Source: a virus
Lineage: Duplodnaviria > Heunggongvirae > Uroviricota > Caudoviricetes
DNA: 16,802 nt
Virus record (IMG/VR): IMGVR_UViG_3300032330_001609
Span: 197,975-214,776 of that record
Reading direction: 5' to 3' (one strand)
The translations under genes and the position numbers were made by a program. This document shows, in pieces, positions 1 to 16,802 of the stretch (the first letter of the stretch is position 1; every line of letters begins with the position of its first letter). Below the pieces are notes generated by a model. The model was given only the letters and a program-made list of their open reading frames with translations, did no database searches and was not told where the DNA came from.

Positions 1-150
1 TTTGGATTTGGTGGAAAATCAGCCAAAGGAAAACGAATGGTGATAAAGAAAAATAATCCGGCTAGAAGAAAATCTTTTAGAGCGAGAATGAATTGTGATA
101 GTCCGGGACCAAGATGGAAAGCGAGATATTGGGCTTGTAGAACTTGGTAA
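1..150 (+). CDS. 3' end of a conserved phage hypothetical protein (partial, start outside window)
   Basis: Frame 1 reads FGFGGKSAKGKRMVIKKNNPARRKSFRARMNCDSPGPRWKARYWACRTW* with TAA at 148-150. The NPARRKSFRAR-C---ARYW-C-W motif is one I recognise from large phage genomes. Not in the ORF track. Confidence 0.75.
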   Translation, partial: FGFGGKSAKGKRMVIKKNNPARRKSFRARMNCDSPGPRWKARYWACRTW

Positions 151-151
151 T

Positions 152-520
152 ATGAATCTCAATATTAAATACGATAAATTATATTCCATCTTTGAAAAAA
201 TGATGGAACCTTATTCTGATTTAGAAAGAGGTACTAGGTCTTATGATTATTGGGTTCAAGAAAATAATCGTTATGTTGATTTAGATGTCTTAAATTTTTA
301 TGAAGATATTGATGAAGATTGGGAAAATGATAATTGGATTCTACAATATCAAGATACTCCGGGAGATGAAGGAAAAGATGAGGATTTACCAATATTAAGA
401 TATGGTGAGTATTGGATTAAGAACATCCAATCTATATTTGGTAAGCATTTTGAGGGTTTACTTAAAGATTGGTTTGAAAAAACATACAACCGCAAAGTTA
501 AAACTGTTGAAAAATACTAA
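152..520 (+). CDS. Hypothetical protein, member of a local paralog family with C-terminal FG--W(F/V)E--Y---V-T motif
   Basis: Start moved from 95 to ATG 152, 1 nt after the upstream stop. Ends IQSIFGKHFEGLLKDWFEKTYNRKVKTVEKY, similar to 4646-5032. Confidence 0.75.
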   Translation: MNLNIKYDKLYSIFEKMMEPYSDLERGTRSYDYWVQENNRYVDLDVLNFYEDIDEDWENDNWILQYQDTPGDEGKDEDLPILRYGEYWIKNIQSIFGKHFEGLLKDWFEKTYNRKVKTVEKY

Positions 521-1254: not shown

Positions 1255-1287
1255 AAAATAACCCCATCCTAAACGGTGGGGTTTTTT
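1253..1287. terminator. Bidirectional intrinsic terminator
   Basis: A-tract, ACCCCATC-ctaaac-GGTGGGGT stem (one G-U pair), then T-tract, between convergent genes. Confidence 0.75.
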
Positions 1288-3041
1288 GTTCCATAACCTA
1301 TTACGGATTCAATATTTTCTTTTTGTCTTTTTCCTCCGACAAATGTTCCATTAACTTTTTCACCATTGTCAATAACATCATCAACTTCATCAGTGTAGTT
1401 TCCCTTGGCATTTTTTGTTACTTTAACACCATTTTTAATAACCTTATTAATCATTTTGGAACCATTATAATCATCTTGGTAATTATTTTTATACATCCAT
1501 TCTAATGTTGATTTAATATCACCATCCTTGTTAGGTGTTTTTATTTCCTTAACACCATTTTTAACAACATCATCAACTTCTTCTTGAATCCGATAATTGA
1601 AAATACCGGTCTTTTTGTCAACACATCCGGATGGTCTAATTTCCTTAACACCATTCTCAATGACATTTTCACATTGACCATCAAACCCAATAGAAGTGAA
1701 TGTTCCGTTTTCCACTTTTAGTGTTTTTTTAATACCATTCTCAATAACATCATCAATCATTTTTGGGTAACTAGTTGAGTTATTTTCTTTCATCCATTCA
1801 GCGGTTGACGCAATATCACCATTACCGGGTGTCTTTGTTTCTTTAACACCATCTCTAATGACAAGATGTGATTCTAAAATAAGTTCTCTACCACTATTAT
1901 CTAAAATCAGAAGTGCATTCTTTTTTTGTTTTGTTTCTTTTATGCCATTTTCAAGAATATCATCTATGGTACCGGAAAGATGTTCTTCAAATTGTTTTGT
2001 TTCTCTCACATTATTTTTAATATGGTTTGTTTCTTTAATACCATTATCCAAAACTCTATCAATTAGATATTGGTCGGTGATAAAATATTCAGCATTGTTA
2101 CCACAATAATCACTAACTTTTGTTTCTTTAACACCATTTTGTAATGTGTCTTCCATTTTATTATCAAAAAATTTCATTACATCAACGTGGTTGGTTTCCT
2201 TCACACCATTTTCAATTGCGTCATCAACTATCCATTTCTTTGTAACTGTTCTTTCTTGTGTGTGTTTTACACCACTATCAATGATGTCTTCAATTTCACC
2301 TCTTTTCAATAAAGATTTATAATCGGTTTCTTTTATCCCCTTTTCAATTGTATCATCAACATTATTGCATTGGTGCCAACCAATATCGGTGTGTCTCACC
2401 CCATTTTGAATGGTGTTTTCAACATTGGTTATCATTGAAAATGGGTTATCTTGAGTGCGTTTCACACCATTTTGAATAGTATCTTCAACCGACCAAACCG
2501 TTTTCATATGTGCCCCTTTAGTTTTTTTAACACCCTTGTCAATTATTTCTTCAACTTGCCAATCAGTATATTGTGTCATTGGGGAAATATCTCTCACCCC
2601 ATTTTCAATAATATTTTCCGCAGTTAATTTACTACGCAGTTCGGAGGTAATAGTTGCCTTCACACCCTTGTCAATTACTTCTTCACATAAAAATTGGGAT
2701 ATATTAAAATCATCTGATTTTATTTCTTTCACCCCATTTTCAAGAACTTCTACCAAATTATATGATGGTGTTTGAGCGGGAGATGGTATATTTTTAGAAC
2801 CATTGATAATATTATCTTCCACCCATTTGGTGATGTATGATTGATTCTCCACAACATCCAACGAAGTGAACTCAAATATTTGTTTGAAGAAGTTGTAGTT
2901 ATACCACAGGGTTTTTTGTTCGGTTAACTCAATAACCCATTTTTTTGATTCCGTGAATATTAACCAAGTTGAACCATTGTGGGTATAGGTATCCACACCT
3001 TTTATCCAATTGTTAATTAGTGAATGTATTATTTTTTCCAT
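1269..3041 (-). CDS. 590-aa repeat protein: ~73-aa paralog-family N-domain plus ~20 units of (V/I)(E/D)xxIxNG(V/I)KxT with unique linkers
   Basis: Long ORF with a consensus promoter directly upstream. The motif recurs, e.g. VEDTIQNGVKRT, VENTIQNGVRHT, VDDAIENGVKET. Confidence 0.88.
   Translation of the reverse strand: MEKIIHSLINNWIKGVDTYTHNGSTWLIFTESKKWVIELTEQKTLWYNYNFFKQIFEFTSLDVVENQSYITKWVEDNIINGSKNIPSPAQTPSYNLVEVLENGVKEIKSDDFNISQFLCEEVIDKGVKATITSELRSKLTAENIIENGVRDISPMTQYTDWQVEEIIDKGVKKTKGAHMKTVWSVEDTIQNGVKRTQDNPFSMITNVENTIQNGVRHTDIGWHQCNNVDDTIEKGIKETDYKSLLKRGEIEDIIDSGVKHTQERTVTKKWIVDDAIENGVKETNHVDVMKFFDNKMEDTLQNGVKETKVSDYCGNNAEYFITDQYLIDRVLDNGIKETNHIKNNVRETKQFEEHLSGTIDDILENGIKETKQKKNALLILDNSGRELILESHLVIRDGVKETKTPGNGDIASTAEWMKENNSTSYPKMIDDVIENGIKKTLKVENGTFTSIGFDGQCENVIENGVKEIRPSGCVDKKTGIFNYRIQEEVDDVVKNGVKEIKTPNKDGDIKSTLEWMYKNNYQDDYNGSKMINKVIKNGVKVTKNAKGNYTDEVDDVIDNGEKVNGTFVGGKRQKENIESVIGYGTKNPTV
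1272..2822 (-). repeat. Degenerate coding tandem repeat, ~20 units; period about 66 nt in the N-proximal half, longer and irregular distally
   Basis: Linkers after units 1-10 are 10,11,10,10,10,10,9,10,10,12 aa. Later linkers are mostly 16-30 aa. Confidence 0.85.
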
Positions 3042-3120: not shown

Positions 3121-3531
3121 ATGGTAAAAACAAAAACAATGTCCTTTCTCAAATACAATAAATTTGAGTTCGGAAAACAAGTCGTGAGTCAATTCGTGGT
3201 CTTCGAGTGTAAGTGGCTCTTCTCAATTATCTTTTTCTATTTCCACAAATCAACGGAACCTCAGGACAGATTTCACACCCACGCATTTAATGCTTGGTCG
3301 GTCAAATTATTCGGAGAGTATGACGAACATATTTTGGATGATGAGACTACCGGTGAATATCACATCGTCAGACGTGAAAAAACTTTAATGTATTTTCCCC
3401 GGGATTCCTATCATCGAATTGCGAACAGCAACGGGTGTATGACAATTCTATTTTCCGGACCGTGGAAAAAATATTGGAAGGAATTTGTCAATGGTGAAAT
3501 AATTCACTATACTTGGGGTAGAGAAAAATAA
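3121..3531 (+). CDS. Cupin-fold protein
   Basis: FHTHAF...GEYDE...YHRI metal-binding pattern typical of cupins. Confidence 0.65.
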   Translation: MVKTKTMSFLKYNKFEFGKQVVSQFVVFECKWLFSIIFFYFHKSTEPQDRFHTHAFNAWSVKLFGEYDEHILDDETTGEYHIVRREKTLMYFPRDSYHRIANSNGCMTILFSGPWKKYWKEFVNGEIIHYTWGREK

Positions 3532-3532
3532 A

Positions 3533-3829
3533 ATGGATAAGGTAAAAATATTACGAAGTGTTGTTAAAAAGATTTATCCTGACGCATCATTTGTTGTAAG
3601 AGTTAATAAATTAGGAAAGTTTCAAATAATTCTCAAAGGAGTTAAAACAACTTATTATGAGGTTGAAACTTTTGAGAGAAAGTTGGTTCTAAAAAATGAT
3701 AAGGTAATTGTGATGGATAATTTCCAACCAAACCTTGAGGCGTTCTATCCATTCTTCACTAAAGAAAATTGTGACATAAAATACATTCTGTGGAATGGTA
3801 AGGTCAAAAATTGGTACGGTAATAATTAA
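3533..3829 (+). CDS. Hypothetical protein, 98 aa
   Basis: ORF begins 1 nt after the upstream stop. Confidence 0.7.
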   Translation: MDKVKILRSVVKKIYPDASFVVRVNKLGKFQIILKGVKTTYYEVETFERKLVLKNDKVIVMDNFQPNLEAFYPFFTKENCDIKYILWNGKVKNWYGNN

Positions 3830-3855: not shown

Positions 3856-4140
3856 ATGGAATACGAGATTGGAACAATAATGCAATTTGCACATAATTGG
3901 GAAACCCGAGGTTGGAAATATTGTGACGGTAGAACATTAATGATTAGTGAATATCCTGAACTTTATGAAGTTATCGGATGTGGGTTTGGTGGTGACTTTA
4001 GAAAAACATTTAACCTACCGGATTTAAGACCAAGAGATACAGATGGGAATTTATTAAGAACTCCTTACGCGGAAAAAATAAATGGGGTACACTATGTACC
4101 ATATCAAATTTGTACCGTTGGAAGAACACCCTTAAAATAA
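3856..4140 (+). CDS. Stand-alone phage tail collar domain protein
   Basis: IGTIMQFA...GWKYCDGRTL.ISEYPELYEVIG..FGGD...FNLPDLR is the tail collar (Collar) signature. Confidence 0.85.
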   Translation: MEYEIGTIMQFAHNWETRGWKYCDGRTLMISEYPELYEVIGCGFGGDFRKTFNLPDLRPRDTDGNLLRTPYAEKINGVHYVPYQICTVGRTPLK

Positions 4141-4645: not shown

Positions 4646-5032
4646 ATGAAATTTATAATATCAGAAGATAGAATCTACGATTTAGTGATGAAACATATTA
4701 ACAGTATGTTTGATATTGATAATATTCATTGGTTATACGGTACTGATGATTTTGGTAATGAAGTGGATTATGGAATATCATTCTATGAAGGTGATTATGA
4801 CGATGATGACAATCTATTTAGATGGTATGGTAAAGATTATTTTTATAGTGAAGAAATGTCTCATCATAATCAAAAAATAATTGATGAATGGGCTGAAAAA
4901 TCACCAATGTTGGAATTTGATAATAACGGTAAAAAAGAACAATTAGATGCTCTTTTTGGTGATAAATGGCATCAACCATTTAAGGATTGGTTCCAAAAGA
5001 ATTTTGATTTACCAATTAAAACAATAGAATAG
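4646..5032 (+). CDS. Hypothetical protein, paralog family member
   Basis: Preceded by TATTTATA. N-terminus MKFIISE; ends LFGDKWHQPFKDWFQKNFDLPIKTIE, like 152-520. Confidence 0.78.
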   Translation: MKFIISEDRIYDLVMKHINSMFDIDNIHWLYGTDDFGNEVDYGISFYEGDYDDDDNLFRWYGKDYFYSEEMSHHNQKIIDEWAEKSPMLEFDNNGKKEQLDALFGDKWHQPFKDWFQKNFDLPIKTIE

Positions 5033-7198: not shown

Positions 7199-7933
7199 TT
7201 ATCGTTTTAATATTTCTTTAGCGTAAAACTCATCAAACCCAACCATCATTTCTGTCATAGATTTGTTTGTCTCTAATCCAACGATGTTATCAATTAACCC
7301 AAACGCTTTTGCCTCGTCCGAGTTAAACCATTTATCATTTCTTGACGACTCATACATCTCGTCAAATGATTTTCCACAATTCTCAGCCAAGATTTTAAAT
7401 AACATATAGTTATATTTTTCAGCTTCCAATTGATTGATACGAGTGTCTTGAACGTTTCCTTGTGTTCCGTGAGACACCATATGTGTCATAATCTTTGAAA
7501 AGATTAACGAACTTCTTTTTCCTTTGGCTCCTGAAGATACCAACACTGAACCCATTGATGCACACATTCCAACATTTAATGTTGCAACATCCGGTTTGAT
7601 GTAGTTCATTGTATCTCGGATTCCAAGTCCTGATAAAACACTTCCACCCGGAGTGTCAAGATACATACTGATGTCTTTTTTATCGGTGGTTTCCAAGAAG
7701 ATAAGTTGAGCTTGGATGATTGATGCCATCTGACTCTCAACCGGTCCGGAAACCCAAATAATTCTATCCATCATAAGTCGGGAGAAAATATCAATTTGAG
7801 TTGCTCTCATTTCTCTTTCTTCCAAGATGTATGGTGTCACACCTTCAATATGTTTTTCAAAATAATCTAAGTTAAGTCCGGACACACCTTTCTCACTCAT
7901 TGCGAATTTTCTAAACTCTTTTCCGTAGTTCAT
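7199..7933 (-). CDS. clpP: ATP-dependent Clp protease proteolytic subunit
   Basis: TPYILEE...DIFSRLMMDRII, TPGGSV, CASMG (catalytic Ser), IMTH (His), RND (Asp). N-terminus is Bacteroidota-like. Confidence 0.95.
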   Translation of the reverse strand: MNYGKEFRKFAMSEKGVSGLNLDYFEKHIEGVTPYILEEREMRATQIDIFSRLMMDRIIWVSGPVESQMASIIQAQLIFLETTDKKDISMYLDTPGGSVLSGLGIRDTMNYIKPDVATLNVGMCASMGSVLVSSGAKGKRSSLIFSKIMTHMVSHGTQGNVQDTRINQLEAEKYNYMLFKILAENCGKSFDEMYESSRNDKWFNSDEAKAFGLIDNIVGLETNKSMTEMMVGFDEFYAKEILKR

Positions 7934-10585: not shown

Positions 10586-11266
10586 ATGATAGATAAATTA
10601 TTTGAAAAGTTTATGACCACCTCAGAAGGTGACCCCGATTTAATTTGGAACAAAGAACAATTTGTTAATATGTTATTGACTGACGATGAGTTCTATCAAA
10701 AGTGGGGTGAAGATTCTTGTGTGGAATTGACTTATGAAGAAAGATATAAATATTGGTTTTCGCATAACTATGAAACAGGAATGGAGTATTATCCTGATAA
10801 TGTTCCCGATTTTGATAATGATTATTATGAACCAACACCAAAAAGAAAAATAAAAGAAATGGAATTAAGTGTAATGGAAAGGTATGTTGCATTCATATGT
10901 AGTGAACTACCAAAAACGAGAAGAGTATTATTAAATCCCCCACCTCCGATGGAAAACGGAGAGTATGGGTATAAGAGATTGAGTAAAATCGGCCCTCACG
11001 TTTATATGATGGTTGATATTGAGATTGTTGAAACATATACTCGTTCGGCTAAGTTGTGTATCAAATTTGAAGATTATCAAATAAACGATATATTTTATAT
11101 GTCCCGTCATAAAGGGCCGGATAAACTATTGGAGGAAATTGATAAGAAAATTGATAAGATTGTTAATAAAACCTTAATTGAGGATGGAAGACAAGAATGG
11201 GTTAGAGAACAATATAAAATCAAGAGTGATAATTTCCCAATTTTCAAAATAAAAACTGAGGAGTAA
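10586..11266 (+). CDS. Hypothetical protein whose N-terminal ~90 aa resembles the inserts of the nearby thymidylate synthase
   Basis: FVNMLLTDDEFYQKWGE and ELTYEER...W...PTPKRKI match thyA inserts 1 and 2. Confidence 0.75.
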   Translation: MIDKLFEKFMTTSEGDPDLIWNKEQFVNMLLTDDEFYQKWGEDSCVELTYEERYKYWFSHNYETGMEYYPDNVPDFDNDYYEPTPKRKIKEMELSVMERYVAFICSELPKTRRVLLNPPPPMENGEYGYKRLSKIGPHVYMMVDIEIVETYTRSAKLCIKFEDYQINDIFYMSRHKGPDKLLEEIDKKIDKIVNKTLIEDGRQEWVREQYKIKSDNFPIFKIKTEE

Positions 11267-11457
11267 TGTATATCATAGTTTGGAGAAATAGTCACCGGGA
11301 ACCATTTATTGATGTGGATTCTCGTCAATTTATGGAATCGTATTATAGTTACGAGGAGGCTAAGGTGGCGGCCGAAGAAATTGTTAAAAACGAAAACGAG
11401 GGTGAACCAAGTCCTTGGTATTTTGATTATAAAATTTATGAAGAGTGTAATGAATAA
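11266..11457 (+). CDS. Small hypothetical protein (Y.SYEEAK motif)
   Basis: TAATG overlap upstream; ATGAATAA overlap downstream. Confidence 0.7.
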   Translation: MYIIVWRNSHREPFIDVDSRQFMESYYSYEEAKVAAEEIVKNENEGEPSPWYFDYKIYEECNE

Positions 11458-11468
11458 ATTAGATAAAC
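11450..11468 (+). repeat. 19-bp direct repeat ATGAATAAATTAGATAAAC, copy 1 (copy 2 at 12766-12784)
   Basis: Exact match at the start codons of the array gene and thyA. Confidence 0.8.
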
Positions 11469-12058
11469 TTTGTATTAAATGGTTGAATGATAATTACAAC
11501 CATATGGAACCATTTATTATAAAAACATACCCTGATTATATTTTTCATATGAAAGATGGGAAATGTATTTTACAATACAATAAAAAAAATGGGTATGTTT
11601 ATGTGAGTTATAGAGAAATTTGGAAGTTTTTTGAATCCTATTTTAGTATGGATAACCAACAAATTAAGGACATCACAAAGATATGGGTGGAGGAACACTA
11701 CAAAATGGGGGTGACAACAACTCTAATTGAATTTCGTCAGATTGTAAATTTGGTGGAGGAACACTACAAAATGGGGGTAACAACAACTTCCTTCAGCACA
11801 ATTAATCTTGCTATACCGGTGGAGGAACACTACAAAATGGGGGTAACAACAACCAGAAGCATCAGCCGAACCATTATAGACCGGGTGGAGGAACACTACA
11901 AAATGGGGGTAACAACAACTGTTGTAAAAGATACCTTTGATGGTATTAAGATAGAGGAACAATACAAAGAAATTCAAACAATCAACAACCAATTAGAATT
12001 TTATTCTGAAAGGGATGTTGAAGAGTTATACAAACAAAACAAATGGATAAAAAATTAG
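11450..12058 (+). CDS. Paralog-family protein with in-frame repeat-spacer array (VEEHYKMGVTTT x4 plus variable decapeptides), 202 aa
   Basis: Start moved to ATG 11450, overlapping the upstream stop. The frame stays open through the whole array. Confidence 0.8.
   Translation: MNKLDKLCIKWLNDNYNHMEPFIIKTYPDYIFHMKDGKCILQYNKKNGYVYVSYREIWKFFESYFSMDNQQIKDITKIWVEEHYKMGVTTTLIEFRQIVNLVEEHYKMGVTTTSFSTINLAIPVEEHYKMGVTTTRSISRTIIDRVEEHYKMGVTTTVVKDTFDGIKIEEQYKEIQTINNQLEFYSERDVEELYKQNKWIKN
11686..11985. CRISPR. Cas-less CRISPR-like mini-array embedded in a CDS: 36-nt repeats, 30-nt spacers
   Basis: GGTGGAGGAACACTACAAAATGGGGGTAACAACAAC at 11686 (one A>G), 11752, 11818 and 11884. A degenerate copy at 11950 matches 16 of its first 19 nt. 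The four spacers are unrelated and exactly 30 nt. The structure is certain; CRISPR function is inferred. Confidence 0.65.
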
Positions 12059-12599: not shown

Positions 12600-12773
12600 A
12601 TGGGACTTATAAATAATCTTTATGCTGTGTATGAAAAATCACCGGCACACGGGAGCAAAGAACATAATGTAATCTTGGCTCCTTTCAAAACTAAAGAAGA
12701 AGCAGAACAAAGCAGAATTAAATATGGTTATAACACCGATAATTATTACGTAGATATTTTGAAATATGAATAA
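12600..12773 (+). CDS. Small hypothetical protein, 57 aa (FKTKEEAE motif)
   Basis: MGLINNLYAVYEK...YVDILKYE*; ATGAATAA overlap with thyA. Confidence 0.62.
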   Translation: MGLINNLYAVYEKSPAHGSKEHNVILAPFKTKEEAEQSRIKYGYNTDNYYVDILKYE

Positions 12774-12784
12774 ATTAGATAAAC
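12766..12784 (+). repeat. 19-bp direct repeat, copy 2
   Basis: Identical to 11450-11468. Confidence 0.8.
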
Positions 12785-14004
12785 AATACACAGACTTGCT
12801 CCAAGACATCTTAGATAACGGAGTAACAAAGCAAGACAGAACAGGTACAGGAACAATTTCAGTATTCGGAAGACAAATACGTCACGATATGAAAGATGGC
12901 TTTCCATTACTCACAACTAAGAAGATGCCATTTAAAACAATCGTAACAGAACTACTTTGGTTCTTACGAGGTGACACCAACATTAAGTTTTTGGTTGATA
13001 ATAATTGTCACATTTGGGATGGTGATGCTTATAAGAGATATGAGAATAGTTATGCCGCTTGGGTTGGAAATTCTTCGTGGTCAAATAATGCTGAGCCTTG
13101 GGATATGGAAAACTTTATTCGACTAATAAAAGAAGACGAGAGGTTTTGTTCCATATTTGGTGAGTTAGGTCCAATTTACGGTAAGCAATGGAGAAGTTGG
13201 GATGGTTATCATAATGCAATTGGTGAAGATAATAGATTCATAAAAAATATGAATGGTATAGACCAAATCCAAAATCTAATCAACGACCTTAAAACAAATC
13301 CAGACTCAAGACGATTAATGGTTAATGCTTGGAATGTTGGAGAGCTGGATTCTATGGTCTTGCCACCTTGCCATTATGGATTTCAAGTTTATACAAGAGA
13401 GTTGAGTGATGAGGAAAGATTATCTTGGATGAAACAAAATAAAAGTAATGTTGTTTTACCAATGAGAGACCCTAGTGTTGAGTTTTCTATGGATGAGTTT
13501 TTTAGACCTTATGGTGTACCTAAACGAGCAATCTCTTTAATGTGGAATCAAAGAAGTGTTGATACATTCTTAGGTTTACCATTCAACATCGCATCTTATG
13601 GATTATTATTAGAAATAATTGCAAAAGAAGTTAATATGGTTCCTGAAGAGTTGATTGGAAATTTAGGTGATGTTCATTTATACTCAAACCATATTGAACA
13701 AGCAAAAGAACAGATTGGAAGAGAATATACTCACCAAGAAAGAACAGAATTGTTAAAACAAGCGATGGGTAAAGAAAGATATGATAAAGCAGTTGATGAA
13801 TTGATGCCGTTCGGTGGTGGGTTAAGTAGTGAATATGAATGGTATAAAATACCTCATCATTCAAGAGAACCTTATAAGTTACCAAGATTGAAATTCTCAC
13901 CTTGCCCAATAACCGGAATTGATATTGAGTATCAATCAATAGCTCAATTCCAAATTGAGAATTACGAATCACATCCAACAATTAAAGCACCTTTAAGCAA
14001 TTAA
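12766..14004 (+). CDS. thyA: Thymidylate synthase with three large inserts
   Basis: DRTGTGT, ELLWFL, LGPIYGKQWR, SRR, LPPCH (catalytic Cys), QRSVD, PFNIASY (Asn, dUMP-specific), GDVHLY, HPTIKAPLS. Confidence 0.97.
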   Translation: MNKLDKQYTDLLQDILDNGVTKQDRTGTGTISVFGRQIRHDMKDGFPLLTTKKMPFKTIVTELLWFLRGDTNIKFLVDNNCHIWDGDAYKRYENSYAAWVGNSSWSNNAEPWDMENFIRLIKEDERFCSIFGELGPIYGKQWRSWDGYHNAIGEDNRFIKNMNGIDQIQNLINDLKTNPDSRRLMVNAWNVGELDSMVLPPCHYGFQVYTRELSDEERLSWMKQNKSNVVLPMRDPSVEFSMDEFFRPYGVPKRAISLMWNQRSVDTFLGLPFNIASYGLLLEIIAKEVNMVPEELIGNLGDVHLYSNHIEQAKEQIGREYTHQERTELLKQAMGKERYDKAVDELMPFGGGLSSEYEWYKIPHHSREPYKLPRLKFSPCPITGIDIEYQSIAQFQIENYESHPTIKAPLSN

Positions 14005-16159: not shown

Positions 16160-16720
16160 TTATACATCTTTTATATACACCCAATTTTTCTGATAGTTTT
16201 TATTGTTAACACAGAACGATGCGTATCCATTAACGATTGGTCTCCCGGTATTATAGTAACCACAAACTAATTTCCAATTACCATACCTATTATGTAACTG
16301 ATGGAGTAATTTCATACTAGTTCTAATATTGAGGTCAATATTATTTTTCAGGTTCTTTTTTGAAATTTTTTGATTATGAACATCATTTGCTGTTGCCGGC
16401 ATAATTTGCATTGGGCCGACAGCACCAACACAGGAAGTTTGACCCGGTTTATATTTCCAATCAAACGGACCTTTGTATCTTGTTTCTAAATAAGCAACGT
16501 TAAATGCTATATGTTTTGGTATTTCATAGATATCTGAGTAATGGTCGATTAACTCATACATCTTTAACGGAGTTGGGGAACTCAAATCTGAGTCCCCCAA
16601 TTTAGAAAGTTCAATACTTGGATTTTTCTCCACTTTATTGTTCATAATTTTGAACGAAGTTGTTAACACAATCATCGACAGAATTAATGTTGTAAATAAG
16701 ATAATTCCACGTAATTTCAT
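16160..16720 (-). CDS. Lytic transglycosylase (SLT domain) with N-terminal hydrophobic anchor
   Basis: AYLET (catalytic Glu), GAVGPMQIMPATA, YYNTG. Start moved to ATG 16720 (MKLRGIILFTTLILSMIVL). Confidence 0.85.
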   Translation of the reverse strand: MKLRGIILFTTLILSMIVLTTSFKIMNNKVEKNPSIELSKLGDSDLSSPTPLKMYELIDHYSDIYEIPKHIAFNVAYLETRYKGPFDWKYKPGQTSCVGAVGPMQIMPATANDVHNQKISKKNLKNNIDLNIRTSMKLLHQLHNRYGNWKLVCGYYNTGRPIVNGYASFCVNNKNYQKNWVYIKDV

Positions 16721-16802
16721 AGTTTTTATTTTATAGTTGATGTCGCAACAGTATTGTTTTGACCCCATACGTTTTTGGCGTATAGCTTAAAAATAGTTTT
16801 CC

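What the first reader, a model, noticed from the sequence alone, without database searches (positions are those of the whole stretch)
11686..11919. Antisense repeat resembles a type VI-B (Cas13b) direct repeat but with a broken stem
The minus-strand repeat is GTTGTTGTTACCCCCATTTTGTAGTGTTCCTCCACC. Against the Bergeyella zoohelcum Cas13b repeat as I recall it (GTTGGAACTGCTCTCATTTTGGAGGGTAATCACAAC; verify), it matches 21 of 36 positions ungapped, including the 5' GTTG and the central CATTTTG at identical positions. Type VI-B occurs in Bacteroidota, and VI-B arrays in Flavobacterium columnare are reported to gain spacers in trans from II-C Cas1-Cas2. The arms around CATTTTG pair poorly here, so it may remain an integration substrate yet be a poor crRNA. 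Alternatively it could act as a decoy RNA anti-CRISPR, or as guides that hijack host Cas13b against competitors.
Basis: partly seen in the sequence, partly recalled or inferred. Interest (0 to 1): 0.7.

Follow-up and report, generated by a model that had tools for sequence, protein, structure and literature searches.

The report
CRISPR-type array read as phage protein
The repeat does resemble Cas13b-type CRISPR repeats, but it is the coding tail of a lake jumbo-phage gene that keeps gaining 30-base pieces of its host bacterium's chromosome and stays readable as protein, which I found in no paper searched.

Summary
Observation confirmed, interpretation only partly. The minus-strand 36-mer matches six real type VI-B repeats at 19.5/36 on average (shuffles 11.6, p≈0.0002). 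It has lost the GUUG/CAAC stem and barely folds (-0.9 kcal/mol, against -5 to -12.7 for real repeats).

Repeat 1 encodes the last helix and strand of a folded head domain. Orthologues gain 29-30-nt spacers at the 5' end, like a CRISPR array. Of 77 spacers, 21 match host-genus chromosomes (here dnaN at 28/30 and an AbiEii-adjacent gene at 29/30) and one matches a phage gene. Only 3 of 77 have an in-frame stop, against 38-50% expected.

These phages show no cas1, cas2 or cas13b. Cas13b was found in 0 of 251 host-genus genomes, whereas type II cas1 is common there. Best reading: a host Cas1-Cas2-type integrase (inferred) writes host DNA into a translated phage gene. Racr or competitor-targeting guides are unlikely. 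What the peptides do is unknown. This scan found the same family earlier in other genomes.

The parts
11450..12058 (+). 202-aa phage gene: folded head domain, then the translated repeat-spacer array and a conserved C-terminal unit
   Evidence: AlphaFold2
11450..11685 (+). Coding sequence of the head domain (residues 1-79). It sits where a CRISPR leader would be, at the growing end of the array
   Evidence: pLDDT>90; 422 family representatives; polarity
11686..11721 (+). Repeat 1 (35/36). Encodes VEEHYKMGVTTT, the last helix end and strand of the head fold
11722..11751 (+). Spacer 1 (newest): antisense fragment of host dnaN, 28/30
11752..11787 (+). Repeat 2 (consensus)
11788..11817 (+). Spacer 2: 29/30 to a 330-aa host gene just upstream of a weakly AbiEii-like gene; sense strand, out of frame
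11818..11853 (+). Repeat 3
11854..11883 (+). Spacer 3: no source found
11884..11919 (+). Repeat 4
11920..11949 (+). Spacer 4 (old, shared by many orthologues): 27/30 to a host altronate/galactarate dehydratase gene, in frame; the weakest of the three assignments
11950..11985 (+). Decayed trailer repeat (22/36), conserved across orthologues
1269..3041 (-). Second, older array gene (590 aa, family B). Its 36-nt repeat shares the DNA core at the same positions but is read in another frame
2388..2423 (+). Family-B repeat copy whose antisense is the best match to the VI-B repeat profile in the whole 215-kb contig (22.7 bits)

Best explanation
The 36-mer is the coding sequence of the last helix and strand of a small phage protein, and it also works as a CRISPR-type integration site. 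During infection of a Flavobacterium-like host, a Cas1-Cas2-type integrase inserts 29-30-bp double-stranded DNA fragments, almost all from the host chromosome, at the junction between head and repeat, duplicating the 36 bp each time. The integrase is most likely the host's type II-C enzyme acting in trans. Each 66-bp step adds 22 codons. Phage lineages whose new insert carries a stop or shifts the frame are mostly purged in this subfamily, so the product is a head domain plus a growing tail of constant 12-aa units and effectively random 10-aa peptides. The antisense VI-B likeness reflects what the integrase recognises (and possibly ancestry), not a working crRNA. SHOWN: geometry, polarity, host origin of spacers, both orientations, frame selection, no detected cas genes in the phage, broken stem. 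INFERRED: which enzyme integrates; that the protein is made; that the tail rather than translation itself is what selection keeps.
For: Polarity: spacers unique to one array are 49% in first, 36% in second, 12% in middle and 6% in last position; repeats decay toward the 3' end; only 7 spacer pairs occur in both orders against 139 ordered pairs seen at least twice. Lengths: 30 nt x75 and 29 nt x3, like real VI-B arrays (30 x59, 29 x4, 31 x2) and a host II-C array. Host origin: 21 spacers with <=3 mismatches, 4 of them exact, including 23S rRNA; one genome matches 4 of the 5 spacers of one array; reversed-spacer control gave 0 hits against 7. Strand 12 sense to 8 antisense (52% expected) and 3 of 20 in frame (26% expected), so sampling looks random. 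In-frame stops 3/77 against 25-41/77 in the other frames, p≈1e-12 versus host coding DNA. No cas1 or cas2 found in G000 or three complete relatives; cas1 in 5 of 10 host-genus genomes and a cas9-cas1-cas2 locus. The leader-distal GTTGT end agrees with the motif shared by II-C and VI-B repeats in PMC8092290. Family B keeps the same DNA core in another frame, 24/36 in DNA register against 19/35 in codon register. Distant subfamilies duplicate 36 nt from the same base.
Against: The one host-genus II-C repeat recovered is 46 nt, not 36; PMC8092290 leaves the same length gap unexplained for most species. No crisp PAM: nothing on the growing-end side (p=0.62) and only a weak A-rich bias on the far side (p≈0.002, 17 sites, mixed hosts), whereas F. 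columnare puts the PAM end toward the leader. The best-matching host genome G009 shows no cas1 (an incomplete MAG is possible). Frameshifted and truncated arrays exist here (3 spacers of 29 nt, 3 stops) and appear common in distant subfamilies. No expression data. A phage-encoded integrase unrelated to Cas1 was not excluded.
Confidence: 0.65

Rival explanations
1. Collateral insertion, tolerated: the helix-strand codons happen to resemble a repeat, the host integrase hits them by accident, and selection only keeps ribosomes running (avoiding polarity on downstream genes, or keeping the conserved C-terminal unit). The peptides do nothing. This shares the chemistry of the best explanation and differs in denying a role to the tail.
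For: Spacer peptides are random in frame and strand. The tail is predicted disordered. Most of the 422 head-family representatives have a single motif or a short frameshifted tail.
Against: A VI-B-like DNA core is kept at the same positions in two protein families read in different frames. Arrays persist in many lineages, and old units are retained.
Confidence: 0.3
2. Adaptation sink: many replicating phage copies of a repeat-like site soak up Cas1-Cas2-prespacer complexes, so the host array gains fewer anti-phage spacers. The frame is kept only because the site lies inside a needed gene.
For: DNA-level conservation of the core across frames. Type II adaptation genes are common in the host genus.
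Against: A sink need not be coding or polarised. Captured DNA is host rather than phage DNA. No direct test.
Confidence: 0.15
3. One reading: an antisense transcript acts as a decoy (Racr) for Cas13b, or as guides that use Cas13b against competitors or host mRNAs.
For: Antisense similarity to real VI-B repeats is above chance. 36+30 is the VI-B crRNA geometry (10.1101/092577). Phage arrays that target hosts are known (PMC7162821).
Against: The terminal GUUG/CAAC pairing and the fold are lost. Cas13b in 0/251 host-genus genomes. No strand bias toward mRNA targeting. Only 1 of 22 matched spacers is phage-derived. No TAnnTTTG on the minus strand near the array. Selection is visible on the plus-strand frame.
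Confidence: 0.1
4. A phage-encoded, non-Cas1 integrase or recombinase does the insertion.
For: The 36-nt duplication does not match the 46-nt host II-C repeat. No crisp PAM. G009 lacks a cas1 hit.
Against: 29-30-nt inserts, polarity, a GTTG-type end and VI-B likeness all match Bacteroidota CRISPR adaptation. No candidate enzyme was identified, and I did not search for one systematically.
Confidence: 0.15
5. An ordinary protein tandem repeat, or a spurious ORF called over a non-coding CRISPR array (the error described in PMC7673337).
For: The repeat is a native structural element of the protein family. Spurious translated arrays are a known database error.
Against: Spacers are near-exact host DNA, which slippage cannot make. 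The ORF has a conserved folded head and strong stop depletion, unlike real VI-B spacers, of which 16-34 of 59 have stops in each frame.
Confidence: 0.02

Closest known systems
Type VI-B (Cas13b) arrays of Bacteroidota (Smargon et al., 10.1101/092577)
   Same: 36-nt repeat, 30-nt spacer, poly-U loop on the antisense strand, no cas1/cas2 at the locus; mean 19.5/36 identity to six real repeats
   Different: No cas13b in the phage; GUUG/CAAC stem lost; array in frame in a gene; spacers are host DNA with no mRNA-targeting bias
In-trans filling of the F. columnare VI-B array by type II-C Cas1-Cas2 (Hoikkala et al., PMC8092290)
   Same: Cas-less 36-bp array, spacers mostly 30 bp, many from the host's own chromosome, leader-distal GTTGT
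   Different: Target is a phage coding sequence; the 'leader' is protein-coding; no TTTA-type motif at the growing end; host II-C repeat found here is 46 nt; cas1 dependence not tested
Cas-less CRISPR arrays of huge phages (Al-Shayeb et al., PMC7162821)
   Same: Compact phage array without acquisition or effector genes, with some spacers matching the host
   Different: Those are described as guide-producing arrays with host-like repeats; this one is under selection to be translated and its repeat folds poorly
RNA anti-CRISPRs, Racrs (PMC10651486)
   Same: Phage-borne mimic of a CRISPR repeat
   Different: Racrs are solitary non-coding repeat units; this is a growing multi-spacer array inside an ORF, with a rare cognate effector
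Diversity-generating retroelements (own knowledge)
   Same: Phage mechanism that varies the C-terminal part of a protein
   Different: No template/variable repeat pair or adenine mutagenesis seen; variation comes as whole 22-codon inserts of foreign DNA

Membership tests
Type VI-B CRISPR array | 36-nt repeat with about 30-nt spacers | tested here: met
Type VI-B CRISPR array | Sequence similarity to VI-B repeats with a poly-U loop | tested here: inconclusive
   Above chance on the minus strand (19.5/36, p=0.0002) but far below real members (27/36; 8.5 against 31-43 bits)
Type VI-B CRISPR array | Complementary 5'-GUUG and CAAC-3' ends forming a stem | tested here: not met
   3' end reads CACC; -0.9 kcal/mol against -5.0 to -12.7
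Type VI-B CRISPR array | Adjacent cas13b | tested here: not met
   model validated
Type VI-B CRISPR array | Processing and loading by Cas13b | not testable with these tools
   needs biochemistry
CRISPR array in general (acquisition substrate) | Polarised addition of unique spacers, with a decayed trailer repeat | tested here: met
CRISPR array in general (acquisition substrate) | Spacers copied from foreign DNA | tested here: met
   21 host matches and 1 phage match
CRISPR array in general (acquisition substrate) | PAM or acquisition motif beside protospacers | tested here: inconclusive
   Upstream p=0.62; weak downstream A-rich bias p≈0.002, n=17, proxy host genomes
CRISPR array in general (acquisition substrate) | Non-coding AT-rich leader | tested here: not met
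   Upstream DNA encodes the head domain
CRISPR array in general (acquisition substrate) | Cas1-Cas2 dependence | not testable with these tools
   None found in the phage; present in the host genus
Racr | Solitary repeat unit in non-coding viral DNA | tested here: not met
   4+1 repeats inside an ORF
Racr | Cognate Cas system in the host | tested here: inconclusive
   Cas13b in 0/251 sampled host-genus genomes; the exact host is unknown
Racr | Small RNA is expressed and inhibits Cas | not testable with these tools
   No promoter evidence
Diversity-generating retroelement | Template and variable repeats differing at adenines | tested here: not met
   Spacers are unrelated to each other and have no second copy in the genome
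Diversity-generating retroelement | Reverse transcriptase | not tested
   not searched

The most novel reading that the evidence does not exclude
A phage has adopted CRISPR spacer acquisition as a protein-diversifying device. A Cas13b-type repeat overprinted on a protein's last helix and strand, in at least two reading frames, recruits the host Cas1-Cas2 to write 10-residue cassettes from host DNA into phage proteins, and the variable tails are useful.
Probability: 0.35. Interest if true: 0.92.

Novelty: categorically new. Interest (0 to 1): 0.8.

Why it matters
CRISPR arrays are taken to be non-coding, and proteins translated from them are treated as annotation errors (PMC7673337). Here an array with real acquisition dynamics is under strong selection to stay in frame. 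If Cas1-Cas2 is the writer, it is a natural in-frame DNA recorder and peptide-library builder. It offers a direct test of how 36-bp VI-B-type arrays are filled in species whose II-C repeats are about 10 bp longer, an open point in PMC8092290. The spacers also name the hosts of uncultured jumbo phages: one array matched one genome at 4 of 5 spacers.

Tried and rejected
Rfam: no family at meaningful E-value. Pfam and PHROGs: nothing useful for the 202-aa protein. ESM Atlas features: no usable hit. Fold searches: no PDB match by Foldseek; best VIA Z 4.0, which is uninformative; only uncharacterised phage proteins in BFVD. None of this shows the fold is new. Spacer sources in cultured phages, in IMG/VR for spacer 1, and in the own genome and three complete relatives: none except one relative's spacer. 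The recalled B. zoohelcum repeat was not found in full text or supplements, so I used repeats from cas13b loci; three of nine loci gave no array with my simple scan. My early idea that the plus strand is the VI-B-like strand: weaker than the minus strand. Host-peptide mimicry and mRNA-targeting bias: not seen. Strictly 5'-only growth: too strong, because some arrays share the first spacer but differ inside, so loss and recombination also occur. Literature searches for coding or translated arrays found no description; the library lacks most subscription papers. G009 could be fetched only in part. No complex prediction was run, as no binding claim is made.

Full report
Setting. The window is the last 16.8 kb of a 214,776-nt virus contig, estimated 73% complete; complete relatives are 308-322 kb. 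It carries ThyA and ClpP. Spacer matches place the host in a large Bacteroidota genus.

The observation. Four 36-nt repeats with three 30-nt spacers lie at 11686-11919, followed by a fourth spacer and a decayed repeat ending at 11985. The minus strand matches the quoted B. zoohelcum repeat at 21/36, as stated, but the plus strand matches it at 20/36. I could not verify that repeat in papers, so I collected six VI-B repeats from cas13b loci. The minus strand averages 19.5/36 (dinucleotide shuffles 11.6, p=0.0002) and the plus strand 16.5 (p=0.015). Real repeats match each other at 27/36, and the profile score is 8.5 bits against 31-43. The GUUG/CAAC end pairing described for VI-B (10.1101/092577) is lost, and the RNA folds at -0.9 kcal/mol against -5.0 to -12.7. 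The likeness is real but distant, and the stem is broken.

The array is in frame in ORF 11450-12058; each repeat reads VEEHYKMGVTTT and each spacer adds ten residues. AlphaFold2 gives a confident head of about 93 residues in which repeat 1 supplies the end of the last helix and the last strand; the tail is low-confidence. The head belongs to a large unnamed family (422 representatives), most of whose members carry the motif once. 294 close homologues were found, and the listed ones step in length by about 22 residues.

It grows like a CRISPR array. In 114 distinct arrays, spacers unique to one array are 49% in first position and 6% in last, repeats decay toward the 3' end, and order is mostly conserved. 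At DNA level 75 of 86 spacers are 30 nt and 3 are 29 nt; the 27- and 33-nt ones are probably later indels (inference). Real VI-B arrays give the same 29-30-31 mix. Distant subfamilies with different repeat sequences duplicate 36 nt from the same base, with 29-30-nt spacers, and two of them match real VI-B repeats at up to 23-24/36.

The spacers are host DNA. One relative's spacer hit ftsI of a Bacteroidota MAG exactly over 29 nt. Among 401 genomes of that genus, the window's spacer 1 matches dnaN antisense (28/30), spacer 2 a 330-aa gene beside a weakly AbiEii-like gene (29/30), and spacer 4 an altronate dehydratase family gene (27/30); spacer 3 has no match. Overall, 21 of 77 spacers have a host match within three mismatches, 17 within two and four exactly, one of them in 23S rRNA, although only some arrays were searched widely. 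One genome matches four of five spacers of one array. Reversed spacers gave no hit in 1.17 Mb where real ones gave seven. One spacer matches a phage gene at 28/30. Strand (12 sense, 8 antisense) and frame (3 of 20 in frame) fit random sampling of double-stranded DNA followed by a no-stop filter. Flanks show nothing on the growing-end side and a weak A-rich bias on the other (p≈0.002), which is not a defined PAM.

Translation is under selection. Only 3 of 77 spacers have a stop in the gene's frame, against 25-41 in the other five frames. Expectation is 49-51% from phage DNA or shuffles and 38% from host coding DNA (p≈1e-12). Real VI-B spacers show no such gap. The loci were retrieved through head-domain or repeat patterns, so retrieval did not require an open tail. 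The filter is not absolute: 29-nt frameshifts and late stops occur, and many distant members end in WRNI-like tails, which is the repeat read out of frame (inference).

A DNA-level signal. The 590-aa gene at 1269-3041 is an older array of a second family. Its 36-nt repeat carries the same CAAAATGGGG at positions 16-25 but is read one base out of register. The two repeats match at 24/36 in DNA register and 19/35 in codon register, and an antisense copy at 2388 is the best VI-B-profile hit in the contig. I infer that the core is kept for the integrase rather than only for the peptide.

Who integrates. No cas1, cas2 or cas13b was found in this contig or in three complete relatives. In the host genus, cas1 was found in 5 of 10 genomes checked, including a cas9-cas1-cas2 locus, while Cas13b passed the cut-off in 0 of 251. 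PMC8092290 shows II-C Cas1 filling a cas-less 36-bp VI-B array with mostly 30-bp spacers, many self-derived, the two repeats sharing a leader-distal GTTGT; the phage repeat has GTTGT at that end. Against this, the host II-C repeat I recovered is 46 nt, and no PAM faces the growing end. The enzyme is therefore inferred, not shown.

Verdict. It works like a CRISPR acquisition substrate, but it fails membership of type VI-B (no stem, no cas13b) and of Racrs (not solitary, coding). Competitor-targeting is contradicted by spacer origin, and a decoy RNA is unlikely but untested. The best reading (0.65) is host Cas1-Cas2-type integration into a translated phage gene. Whether the variable tail is useful (about 0.35), merely tolerated (about 0.3) or a sink for the adaptation machinery (about 0.15) is open. 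Five literature searches found no description of such coding arrays; PMC7673337 treats translated arrays as errors. The scan reported this family earlier in other genomes; those notes were used as leads, not as evidence.

Noticed in passing
window 1269-3041 (-): Second, decayed array gene (family B); repeat shares the DNA core in a different frame, and orthologues hold fresher arrays
   Followed up: partly
L011:1352-1585 and 3231-3534: Two paralogous array genes 1.9 kb apart; the first has a 29-nt frameshifting spacer and a spacer identical to host 23S rRNA
   Followed up: partly
L033 first spacer; G003 near 180858-180883: The only phage-derived spacer: 28/30 to a gene conserved in G000-G003
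   Followed up: partly
L037:2007-2072 vs L213: A junction stop (TA+G) arises where the host has AA, so it may have appeared after acquisition or reflect a strain difference
   Followed up: no
P0003/P0004, P0020/P0045/P0063: Arrays that share the first spacer but differ inside, and seven spacer pairs seen in both orders: recombination or internal insertion
   Followed up: partly
L104:178-1928: The gene hit by window spacer 2 lies just upstream of a weakly AbiEii-like gene and may be a type IV toxin-antitoxin antitoxin (inference)
   Followed up: partly
window 95-520, 520-1107, 4646-5032, 10586-11266: Other small proteins end in a similar W-F/V-x-x-x-F/Y helix-strand motif without arrays; distant head-family paralogues are scattered in G000
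   Followed up: partly
window 12766-14004 (+): Thymidylate synthase of 412 aa with long inserts
   Followed up: no
window 7199-7933 (-): ClpP protease that looks Bacteroidota-like by its N-terminus (own knowledge)
   Followed up: no
window 3856-4140 (+) and 16160-16768 (-): Probable tail-collar domain protein and lytic transglycosylase, judged by eye
   Followed up: no
L340:3501-6962: A Flavobacterium cas13b sits among prophage-like genes (tape measure, HicA); my scan found no array there or at L338 and L339
   Followed up: no
L342:7046-8367: In this VI-B array the decayed repeat is next to cas13b, so it may grow at the same end relative to the poly-U strand as the phage array
   Followed up: no
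L097 (G006:C48 near 19400-19700): Non-coding tandem repeat with a period of about 119 nt in the host MAG
   Followed up: no
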